Positions 2,902 to 5,900 of a DNA stretch of 64,000 nucleotides are shown one piece after another (positions within the stretch are counted from its first letter, which is position 1; each line of letters begins with the position of its first letter). The position numbers were made by a program. The DNA is taken from the NCBI RefSeq assembly GCF_046105845.1, contig NZ_CP151004.1. One strand, 5' to 3'. The stretch is from Escherichia coli (GTDB taxonomy: Bacteria; Pseudomonadota; Gammaproteobacteria; Enterobacterales; Enterobacteriaceae).

Positions 2902-5900
2902 TCAGCCCGCTTGCCTGCTCCAGCCGCGCGCAAATGTCTTTAAAGTTAAAAGTATGCGGCCCCATCAATACCGGAATAGCGTGTGCGGCAGCTTCCAGCG
3001 GATTATGCCCACCACGTTCAACCAGTGAACCGCCAACAAAGGCGAGATCGGCAATACCGTACAGTAACATCAACTCGCCCATCGTATCGCCAACCACAAC
3101 CTGCGTGCTGGTGGAAGGGACTTCCCCTGAAGAGCGTGTGATATAGCTTAGTCCAGCCTGGCGGACAAGGTTAATCGCATCCGGGAAGCGTTCCGGATGA
3201 CGGGGTACCAGGATGAGCAATAAATTCGGGAATTGCTGCAACAATGCCTGATGTGCGGCGAGCACCACACTCTCTTCGCCTTCGTGAGTGCTGGTGGCAA
3301 TCCATACCGGGCGGTGTGGTGCCCACTGGCGGCGCAGCGTTACGGCTTTAGCAGCCAGTTGCGGCGTTACAGAGATATCAAATTTCAGGCTACCGGTAAC
3401 GGTCACCTGATTATTTTTTGCGCCCAGCGCCACAAAACGCGCGCCATCTTCTTCATTTTGCGCAGCAATCAGTGTAATACGACGCAGCAAGCGGCGGACG
3501 AATTTACCCAGTTTGGCATAACCTGCGGCCGAGCGGGCAGAGAGTCGCGCGTTAGCGATCACTAGCGGAATTTTACGTTTATGTAGCGCCGCAATCAGGT
3601 TAGGCCATAGTTCGGTTTCCATAATCAACACCAGTTTAGGGTCGACTTTATTCAGGAAACGATTAAGTGCATCGGGCAGGTCATACGGCAGATAAACGTG
3701 CTGAACATCCTTCCCGAAAGCCGATTGTACGCGCTCCGAACCGGTTGGCGTCATGGTTGTAACGGTAATCGGTAAATCAGGATAACGATGGCGCAGCGCG
3801 CGCACCAACGGGATCGCCGCCAGAGTTTCACCGACGGAGACGGAGTGCAGCATAATGCCGCCTGGTTTTAGCGGATGGCGGTAAAAACCGTAACGTTCAC
3901 CCCAGCGTTTTCGATAGGCCGGAGCCTTACGTCCGCGCACCCAGAGCCGTATCCAGATCAGCGGCTGAATAAGGTAGAGAAGGGCGGTGTAAAGCAATTC
4001 GAGCATAGTAAATAGCTGACTTATGGATGTGCTGGGGATTCTATGTATTTAGCTGTGGCTTTACCATTACTTTTCCCGTTTTTGACTTAAATAGTCTCTG
4101 TTTGAGCTGATCTGCTGCTAAATCTTCATTTTTTTTGTATTTTTATGCGATTCATTGAATTTCAGCCAGGATTGCAACTTTACATAGACAATATCTGGAT
4201 TCTCTGTGTGCAAAATTTTATCTATATGATTTTTATGATTAAATCATATTTTGTGTATAAAAATCATTCGGGTCGGATTGCTGCGAAAGAAATGATACAC
4301 TAGCGCGTCAAAGTAAGTGCGTTATCAGTATTCGGGTAGCTGTTGAGCCTGGGGCGGTAGCGTGCTTTTTTCTGCTTAACTTAACCAGACAATCACACAA
4401 AAGAGTCGCTAGTGGAAAAGCCATTTCGAAAAATCCTGGTCATAAAGATGCGATATCACGGAGATATGTTATTAACTACTCCTGTAATCAGTACACTCAA
4501 GCAGAATTATCCCGATGCTAAAATCGATATGCTGCTTTACCAGGATACAATTCCGATTTTATCTGAAAACCCAGAAATTAATGCACTCTATGGTATAAGC
4601 AATAAAGGTGCGGGAACATTCGATAAAATTAAAAATGCACTTTCACTGATAAAAACTCTGCGTGCGAATAATTACGACCTGGTCATTAATCTTACGGATC
4701 AGTGGATGGTGGCCCTGCTGGTACGTTGTTTACCTGCACAGATGAAAATATCGCAGCTTTATGCTCATCGGCAGCATGGCATTTGGAAAAAAAGCTTTAC
4801 ACACTTAGCGCCTATACACGGTACACATATTGTTGAGCGTAATTTGTCGGTCCTTGAGCCATTAGGTATTACCGATTTTTATACTGAAACAACAATGAGT
4901 TATGCTGATGATTGCTGGAAGAAAATGCGCCAGGAATTAGATGCACTGGGCGTGAAAGATCATTATGTCGTCATCCAGCCGACAGCCCGACAGCTATTTA
5001 AGTGCTGGGATAACGATAAATTTTCTATGGTTATCGATGCGTTGCAACATCGTGGTTATCAGGTTGTGCTGACTTGTGGCCCTTCGGCAGATGATCTCGC
5101 TTGCGTAGATGAAATTGCACGAGGCTGCCAAACAAAACCTATTACCGGCCTTGCCGGTAAAACACGTTTTCCTGAACTGGGCGCATTAATTGATCATGCA
5201 GTGCTCTTTATTGGTGTGGATTCTGCGCCGGGGCATATCGCGGCGGCGGTGAACACGCCAGTTATTAGCCTGTTTGGGGCTACTGATCATGTATTCTGGC
5301 GTCCATGGACCGAGAATATTATTCAGTTCTGGGCGGGGAATTATCAAAAAATGCCTACCCGGCACGAACTTGACCGCAACAAAAAATATCTTTCTGTTAT
5401 TCCAGCGGAAGATGTCATTGCCGCTACGGAAAAGTTGTTGCCAGAAGATGCCCCTTCAGCTGACAGGAATGCACAATTATGATCGTGGCGTTTTGCTTAT
5501 ATAAATATTTTCCATTTGGTGGGTTACAGCGTGACTTTATGCGTATTGCCTCAACAGTTGCCACACGGGGCCACCATGTTCGGGTATATACACAGTCATG
5601 GGAAGGCGATTGCCCGGATGCATTTGAGCTTATTCGCGTACCGGTTAAATCCCATACTAACCATGGACGTAATGCAGAATATTATGCCTGGGTTCAAAAC
5701 CATCTGAAGGCACATCCCGCTGATCGGGTTGTTGGCTTTAATAAGATGCCAGGGCTGGATGTTTATTTTGCCGCTGATGTCTGTTATGCCGAGAAAGTGG
5801 CGCAAGAAAAGGGCTTGTTCTATCGTTTAACATCACGCTATCGCCATTATGCTGCATTTGAGCGAGCGACTTTCGAGCATGGTAAACCGACGAAACTCAT

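What the first reader, a model, noticed from the sequence alone, without database searches (positions are those of the whole stretch)
4412..4450. waaQ probably starts at GTG 4412, not the downstream ATG
Directly seen: starting at GTG 4412 keeps the GT9 N-terminal KILVIK...GD motif that WaaC and WaaF have at their extreme N-termini, whereas ATG 4448 (MRYHGD...) truncates it. A purine-rich stretch precedes the GTG.
Basis: seen in the sequence. Interest (0 to 1): 0.3.

Follow-up and report, generated by a model that had tools for sequence, protein, structure and literature searches.

The report
waaQ starts at the upstream GTG

Summary
GTG 4412 opens a 356-aa ORF (4412..5482). It is the only ATG/GTG/TTG between the in-frame stop TAA 4382-4384 and ATG 4448. 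The 12 extra residues (MEKPFRKILVIK) match the curated RfaQ model from its position 1. They supply the first beta-strand (residues 7-11) of the GT9 N-terminal Rossmann domain, just as residue 2 onward does in the solved WaaC, WaaF and 3TOV structures. In 83 species-level loci the segment is always present. GTG is invariant at this position in 61 loci. Three-base periodicity of variation starts exactly at the GTG. Sixteen species have Leu instead of Met at position 13. Experimental evidence exists for E. coli K-12, whose sequence is identical here. Tetracycline ribosome profiling (Nakahigashi et al. 2016) mapped the rfaQ start to GTG at -36 nt, with depth 65/80/76 against 0/5/0 at the ATG, and lacZ fusions agreed. 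PGAP annotates 356 aa in RefSeq E. coli genomes. Only the curated K-12 reference record (NC_000913.3, b3632, 344 aa) and the sequences derived from it keep the ATG. Novelty: already known. Interest: low.

The parts
4412..5482 (+). waaQ (rfaQ) coding sequence, 356 aa plus stop: LPS core heptosyltransferase III, GT9 family
   Evidence: ORF. NF007742 RfaQ equivalog scores 678.7 bits (cutoff 467), aligned 1-350 to model positions 1-350; TIGR02201 scores 503 bits; PF01075 covers residues 77-326. PGAP CDS in the 99.6%-identical record NZ_CP116067 has the same coordinates.
4412..4414 (+). GTG initiation codon of waaQ
   Evidence: Only ATG/GTG/TTG between the stop at 4382 and ATG 4448. Invariant GTG in 61 loci / 59 unique sequences. 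TetRP start at -36 nt GTG in K-12, depth 65/80/76. Called as the start by PGAP in three E. coli lineages.
4448..4450 (+). ATG = internal Met13 codon; this is the start used in the curated K-12 reference annotation (b3632, 344 aa)
   Evidence: NC_000913.3 waaQ 3807064..3808098 = 344 aa. TetRP depth 0/5/0 at this site. Replaced by Leu codons in 16 of 83 species loci.
4430..4444 (+). Codons 7-11 (KILVI): first beta-strand of the N-terminal Rossmann-like domain, lost if translation began at ATG 4448
   Evidence: AlphaFold2 model has strand E7-11 followed by the GD loop and helix 16-32. These residues align to residues 2-6 of WaaC 2GT1/6DFE and WaaF 1PSW and to 3TOV. TIGR02201 and TIGR02193 model position 1 falls at residue 7.
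4399..4405 (+). Purine-rich AAAAGAG, a weak Shine-Dalgarno-like element 6 nt upstream of the GTG
   Evidence: Sequence. Duplex energy with the anti-SD is only -2.4 kcal/mol. The AAGAG core is nearly invariant across 59 unique orthologous sequences while its flanks vary freely.
4382..4384 (+). In-frame TAA that bounds the waaQ reading frame upstream
   Evidence: Read from the sequence. The ORF listing starts the ORF at 4412. In many other species the in-frame stop lies only 4 codons upstream of the GTG.
4326..4364 (+). JUMPstart element with the ops site GGCGGTAGCGTG (4353-4364) in the waaQ 5' leader; context, not part of the CDS
   Evidence: Rfam RF01707, 53.1 bits (gathering 35), E 3.3e-11.
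4308..4380 (+). Equivalent of the K-12 small RNA RirA (b4760) in the waaQ 5' UTR; it ends 32 nt before the GTG, so the longer CDS does not overlap it
   Evidence: NC_000913.3 ncRNA rirA 3808166..3808238, mapped through the collinear K-12 sequence, which has one substitution and no indel. Function as described in PMC6358824.

Best explanation
waaQ is translated from GTG 4412 to give a 356-residue heptosyltransferase III. Residues 7-11 (KILVI) form the first strand of the N-terminal Rossmann-like domain, immediately before the conserved GD loop. ATG 4448 is simply the codon for internal Met13. The 344-aa form in the curated K-12 reference record is a legacy mis-annotation that chose the first ATG. 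Shown: the GTG and the 12 codons are conserved as coding sequence; the curated family models and the solved GT9 structures begin at this segment; and in K-12, which is identical in sequence here, initiating ribosomes accumulate at the GTG and not at the ATG. Inferred: a protein starting at Met13 would lack a core strand and so be misfolded or inactive.
For: 1. Sequence: GTG 4412 is the only canonical start between the stop at 4382 and ATG 4448.
2. Family models: NF007742 aligns from model position 1 to residue 1, whereas the short form starts at model position 13 and loses 18.8 bits. TIGR02201 starts at residue 7, and the short form loses 12.8 bits.
3. Solved structures: WaaC (2GT1/6DFE/2H1F) and WaaF (1PSW) align from their residue 2 to KILVIK, and 3TOV aligns from query residue 1.
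4. AlphaFold2 model: pLDDT 86, pTM 0.83, with strand 7-11. The best PDB matches are 3TOV (TM 0.81-0.85), WaaF and WaaC.
5. Predicted homologues: 100 of 120 start at the equivalent position, and several have Leu at position 13.
6. Raw DNA of 83 species-level loci: GTG at -12 in 61. Of the 16 with Leu at position 13, 14 use CTN/TTA codons and all have an upstream GTG or ATG.
7. Variation pattern: per-codon-position entropy is 0.48/0.36/0.97 in codons 2-12 and 1.28/1.37/1.28 upstream of the GTG.
8. Experiment in K-12: TetRP Table S2 lists rfaQ at -36 nt, GTG, '1. new site', depth 65.4/79.8/75.8 against 0/5.1/0. In lacZ fusions, destroying the new start lowered activity more than destroying the ATG (PMC4909307).
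9. Annotation: PGAP gives 356 aa (352 aa in O157) from this GTG.
Against: The curated K-12 reference (NC_000913.3 b3632, protein AAC76656.1, and the UniRef entry named after it) still gives 344 aa from the ATG. The predicted SD pairing is weak and no better at the GTG than at the ATG, and predicted accessibility is equal. No N-terminal peptide was reported for either form. The experimental data are from K-12, not from this strain, although the 120 bases around the start differ by one substitution, and that lies far upstream of the start.
Confidence: 0.94

Rival explanations
1. Dual initiation: the GTG is the main start, but ATG 4448 is also used at a low level and gives a minor 344-aa isoform.
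For: TetRP depth at the ATG was not strictly zero in one of three replicates (5.1). The lacZ result is described only as a 'greater effect' of removing the GTG, which leaves room for some ATG activity in the reporter. The same study reports many genes with dual starts. ATG is conserved at position 13 in 67 of 83 loci.
Against: The authors classed rfaQ as '1. new site', not '4. multiple'. Sixteen species have Leu at position 13, so a short isoform is not a conserved feature. The short form would lack strand beta1. Met13 lies in the conserved core, so its conservation needs no initiation role.
Confidence: 0.05
2. ATG 4448 is the only true start, as in the K-12 reference annotation, and the upstream 36 bases are conserved as untranslated leader, for example as an RNA element.
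For: The curated NC_000913.3 annotation, with 344-aa entries propagated into NCBI and UniRef. ATG is a stronger initiator than GTG in general (established knowledge).
Against: Third-position-biased variation starts exactly at the GTG. Amino-acid-level matches to the family models and to solved structures cover the segment. Leu codons replace the ATG in 16 species. TetRP depth is 0/5/0 at the ATG against about 74 at the GTG. An Rfam scan of 3900..4700 on both strands (E-value up to 0.1) found no RNA family there other than JUMPstart, which lies further upstream.
Confidence: 0.01

Closest known systems
E. coli K-12 WaaQ/RfaQ (b3632), LPS core heptosyltransferase III, with the start re-mapped by Nakahigashi et al. 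2016 (DNA Res 23:193, PMC4909307)
   Same: Same gene and same locus architecture: divergent from waaA, with the JUMPstart/ops and RirA leader, and followed by waaG. The sequence from the ops site through the GTG to beyond the ATG is identical, and DNA identity over the gene is 92.8%. The published start, GTG at -36 nt, is the codon at window 4412.
   Different: The window is a different strain. Its closest complete genome in the collection is E. coli DETEC-S792 at 99.6%, and the protein has a few substitutions relative to K-12. The curated K-12 record still shows the ATG start.
WaaC (heptosyltransferase I; PDB 2GT1, 2H1H, 6DFE) and WaaF (heptosyltransferase II; PDB 1PSW)
   Same: GT9, GT-B fold. 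The N-terminus is Met followed directly by the beta1 strand ([KR][IV]L[IV][IV]) and then the GD loop. Both align with WaaQ from residue 7, and Foldseek gives TM 0.67-0.80.
   Different: WaaQ has six extra residues (MEKPFR) ahead of beta1 and only about 18-20% identity. It scores far below the curated cutoffs of the WaaC models (TIGR02193 94.3 against 185.3; NF008204 40.8 against 437) and below those of the WaaF models (TIGR02195 93.1 against 134.6; NF008162 70.8 against 569). From established knowledge, it adds the branch HepIII onto HepII rather than HepI or HepII onto the main chain.
GT9 protein of Veillonella parvula (PDB 3TOV)
   Same: Best solved relative by sequence (E 4.8e-26) and by fold (TM 0.81-0.85). 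Like WaaQ it has a short leader (MELDYK) before beta1, and this aligns with MEKPFR.
   Different: 24% identity, its function is uncharacterised, and it comes from a diderm Firmicute.

Membership tests
RfaQ/WaaQ heptosyltransferase III (NCBIfam NF007742 equivalog; TIGR02201) | Whole-protein score above the curated cutoff | tested here: met
   NF007742 678.7 bits against cutoff 467; TIGR02201 503.2 bits against 170.2.
RfaQ/WaaQ heptosyltransferase III (NCBIfam NF007742 equivalog; TIGR02201) | Full-length, end-to-end match to the model, including its N-terminus | tested here: met
   With the GTG start, residues 1-350 align to model positions 1-350 of 352. With the ATG start the match begins at model position 13 (NF007742) or 7 (TIGR02201).
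RfaQ/WaaQ heptosyltransferase III (NCBIfam NF007742 equivalog; TIGR02201) | Genomic context: first gene of the long waa core operon, downstream of JUMPstart/ops, divergent from waaA, followed by waaG and waaP | tested here: met
   waaA at 2729..4006 (-) and waaG at 5479..6603 (+). JUMPstart at 4326-4364. The same gene order is annotated in NZ_CP116067 and NC_000913.3.
RfaQ/WaaQ heptosyltransferase III (NCBIfam NF007742 equivalog; TIGR02201) | Transfer of L-glycero-D-manno-heptose (HepIII) onto HepII of the inner core | not testable with these tools
   Needs LPS core analysis of a mutant or an enzyme assay.
Glycosyltransferase family 9 (Pfam PF01075; GT-B fold) | Pfam GT9 domain above the gathering score | tested here: met
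   PF01075 272 bits against 22, residues 77-326.
Glycosyltransferase family 9 (Pfam PF01075; GT-B fold) | Two Rossmann-like domains, with the N-terminal domain beginning with beta1 followed by the GD loop | tested here: met
   AF2 model has strand 7-11, G17-D18, then helix 16-32. Foldseek top hits are 3TOV, 1PSW, 2GT1 and 6DFE. G17 and D18 are invariant in the 17-sequence alignment.

The most novel reading that the evidence does not exclude
GTG rather than ATG is invariant, together with a conserved but weak AAGAG Shine-Dalgarno, across about 60 enterobacterial species. This start lies 48-60 nt downstream of the ops site. One reading is that the combination is selected to make WaaQ initiation poor on its own and dependent on RfaH-mediated ribosome recruitment, in which the RfaH C-terminal domain binds S10, as described for ops operons in PMC6358824. 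The start-codon choice would then be part of the regulatory design of the waa operon and not an accident. My data show only the conservation; the link to RfaH is inference.
Probability: 0.2. Interest if true: 0.35.

Novelty: already known. Interest (0 to 1): 0.08.

Why it matters
The practical value is small. The curated E. coli K-12 reference record (NC_000913.3, b3632), and the protein entries derived from it, still describe a WaaQ that lacks its first 12 residues, including a core beta-strand. Anyone cloning, modelling or tagging WaaQ from that annotation would work with a truncated protein. Anyone counting positions 'relative to the waaQ start codon' in the leader would be off by 36 nt. 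The correction has been published since 2016 and is already applied by PGAP, so nothing new about biology follows from it.

Tried and rejected
1. Shine-Dalgarno strength as a discriminator. Duplex energies with the 16S 3' end are -2.4 (GTG) and -2.2 (ATG) kcal/mol, so they are not informative.
2. mRNA accessibility. The mean unpaired probability is 0.5 at both starts, so this is not informative either.
3. Promoter and terminator consensus scan of 3950-4500. Nothing was found.
4. Supplements of the Ribo-RET (10.1101/520783) and Onc112 (10.1101/511675) start-site profiling preprints. No files are held, so a second independent profiling data set could not be checked.
5. Literature searches for 'waaQ + start codon' and 'waaQ + ribosome profiling'. 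They returned nothing on the start site. The original 1992 rfaQ sequencing papers are not in the library, so I could not check why the ATG was first chosen.
6. A start further upstream than the GTG. This is excluded by the in-frame TAA at 4382 with no start codon in between. Longer N-termini in some metagenome gene calls are over-extensions that translate the JUMPstart element.

Full report
**What is there.** The window carries the E. coli waa (LPS core) locus. waaA lies on the minus strand at 2729..4006. After a 405-bp divergent intergenic region, an ORF runs on the plus strand from 4412 to 5482, followed by waaG at 5479..6603. Reading the sequence confirms each element of the finding:
- GTG at 4412-4414.
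- An in-frame ATG at 4448-4450.
- The peptide (M)EKPFRKILVIK-MRYHGDMLLT.
- A purine-rich AAAAGAG at 4399-4405.
- An in-frame TAA at 4382-4384, with no other ATG/GTG/TTG between it and the GTG.

WaaC (15615..16574, -) starts MRVLIVKTSSMGD and WaaF (16578..17624, -) starts MKILVIGPSWVGD.

**Is the discrepancy real?** Yes. It is a discrepancy between public annotations.
- PGAP starts rfaQ at exactly this GTG in three cases: the closest complete genome (NZ_CP116067, 99.6% identical, CDS equivalent to window 4412..5482), a PGAP-annotated MG1655 copy, and O157:H7.
- The curated K-12 reference NC_000913.3 annotates waaQ (b3632) as 3807064..3808098. That is 344 aa, starting at the downstream ATG.
- The K-12 sequence is identical to the window from the ops site through both candidate starts.
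- Both protein forms circulate in public databases. The 344-aa form appears as AAC76656.1 and as a UniRef entry.

**Protein-level tests.**
- The curated RfaQ equivalog model NF007742 aligns from its position 1 to residue 1 of the long form (678.7 bits). The short form starts at model position 13 and loses 18.8 bits.
- TIGR02201 (heptosyltransferase III) and TIGR02193 (heptosyltransferase I) both begin at residue 7, the K of KILVIK. The short form loses 12.8 and 6.8 bits respectively.
- Pfam PF01075 covers only residues 77-326 and is blind to the question.
- Among solved structures, WaaC (2GT1, 6DFE, 2H1F) and WaaF (1PSW) align from their residue 2 to WaaQ residue 7. The Veillonella GT9 protein 3TOV aligns from WaaQ residue 1.
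- An AlphaFold2 model built on 17 homologues (pLDDT 86, pTM 0.83) places a beta-strand at residues 7-11, followed by the invariant G17-D18 loop and helix 16-32. Its best PDB matches are 3TOV, WaaF and WaaC.

A protein starting at Met13 would therefore lack the first strand of the N-terminal Rossmann-like domain. That it would be non-functional is my inference.

**Comparative tests on predicted proteins.** Of the 120 best homologues, down to 64% identity, 100 start at the equivalent position. One is called at the ATG. The rest are longer calls in which the equivalent codon reads V, meaning an internal GTG. Several of these longer calls translate the JUMPstart element ('VAVEPGAVACFF'), so they are over-extensions.

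**Comparative tests on raw DNA.** Gene calls are not independent evidence, so I repeated the test on DNA from 80 species-level genome loci. With the window and the loci already fetched, 83 had an identifiable GD motif.
- GTG lies exactly 12 codons upstream of Met13 in 61 loci. This is 59 unique sequences, spanning Escherichia, Salmonella, Citrobacter, Kosakonia, Kluyvera, Providencia, Arsenophonus and others.
- Three loci have GTG at -8.
- Sixteen loci (Hafnia, Brenneria, Serratia, Pectobacterium, Samsonia and others) have Leu at position 13. Fourteen of these use CTN or TTA codons. All have an upstream GTG at -12 or -15, or an ATG at -11 or -13. The GTGs at -15 mostly carry a stronger SD (-5.6 to -6.9 kcal/mol; -2.9 in Samsonia).
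- In the 59 unique sequences, per-position entropy is 0.48/0.36/0.97 for codon positions 1/2/3 in codons 2-12 and 0.30/0.10/1.33 after Met13. In the 36 bases upstream of the GTG it is flat at 1.28/1.37/1.28, apart from a nearly invariant AAGAG at -11..-7.

The coding signature therefore begins at the GTG.

**Experimental evidence already published.** Nakahigashi et al. 2016 (DNA Res 23:193, PMC4909307) mapped initiating ribosomes in E. coli K-12 by tetracycline-inhibited ribosome profiling.
- Supplementary Table S2, row 85, lists rfaQ (ECK3622) with a new initiation codon GTG at -36 nt from the annotated ATG. Manual inspection gave '1. new site'.
- Read depth in three replicates was 65.4/79.8/75.8 at the GTG and 0/5.1/0 at the annotated ATG.
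- The coordinate given, 3806157 in U00096.2, corresponds to 3808134 in U00096.3. That is 36 nt upstream of the annotated start 3808098 (my arithmetic).
- rfaQ was one of seven genes tested with lacZ fusions. Destroying the new start reduced beta-galactosidase more than destroying the ATG.
- No N-terminal peptide is recorded for rfaQ in that table.
- I could not check Ribo-RET or Onc112 data sets, because their supplements are not held.

**What did not discriminate.** Predicted accessibility is the same at both sites. The case rests on conservation, family models, structure and the profiling data, not on the SD.

**Context.** The leader carries a JUMPstart element at 4326-4364 (Rfam RF01707, 53 bits), with the ops site GGCGGTAGCGTG at 4353-4364. 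The K-12 small RNA RirA (b4760) maps to window 4308-4380 and ends 32 nt before the GTG, so the longer CDS does not collide with it. The combination of an invariant GTG, a weak conserved SD and an upstream ops site fits the published idea that RfaH couples translation to transcription in ops operons (reviewed in PMC6358824). I did not test that link.

**Verdict.** A low-level second initiation at the ATG cannot be fully excluded (about 0.05). The finding is already known: it was published in 2016, is embodied in NCBIfam NF007742, and is applied by PGAP. The only residual point is that the curated K-12 reference record still shows the 344-aa form. Interest is low.

Noticed in passing
window 4412-4414 and 4399-4405; loci L005-L083: The waaQ start is GTG, never ATG, in 61 of 61 loci with this geometry (59 unique sequences from many enterobacterial genera). 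GTG is also the start at -15 in most of the Leu13 group. The weak AAGAG upstream is nearly invariant as well. A single G-to-A change would make an ATG, so GTG looks selected, possibly in connection with RfaH/ops-coupled translation.
   Followed up: partly
window 4326-4364 (JUMPstart; ops at 4353-4364) and 4308-4380 (RirA equivalent): The waaQ leader holds a full JUMPstart/ops element (Rfam, 53 bits). It folds as a long hairpin at 4315-4367, followed by a U-run. This corresponds to the annotated K-12 small RNA RirA (b4760).
   Followed up: partly
NC_000913.3 3807064..3808098 (L004 2065..3099, minus strand): The curated K-12 MG1655 reference still annotates waaQ as 344 aa from the ATG, whereas PGAP annotates 356 aa on the same sequence in NZ_CP010439. 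Both forms sit in the same 90% protein cluster, with the 344-aa form carried into UniRef.
   Followed up: yes
proteins P0041, P0064, P0094, P0096, P0098 (homologues from metagenome and Logan assemblies): Some automatic gene calls extend waaQ 30-50 codons upstream to an ATG and thereby translate the JUMPstart/ops element, giving peptides such as 'VAVEPGAVACFF'. In these the true GTG start appears as an internal V.
   Followed up: partly
window 14340..15605 (-) ; L085 22116..23415 (NZ_CP116067): waaL (O-antigen ligase, 421 aa) is an intact ORF in the window. The near-identical interval of NZ_CP116067 (6 mismatches in 1300 bp) also has an intact ORF. That RefSeq record annotates no waaL there, only two small hypothetical ORFs on the opposite strand.
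   Followed up: partly
window 13241..14314 (+): WaaU, another GT9 protein, has about 43 residues (MRLGTFHKKKRFYINKIK...) ahead of its beta1/GD motif (SCLIIHDNNKLGD). WaaC, WaaF and WaaQ do not have such an extension. Whether its annotated start is right was not examined.
   Followed up: no
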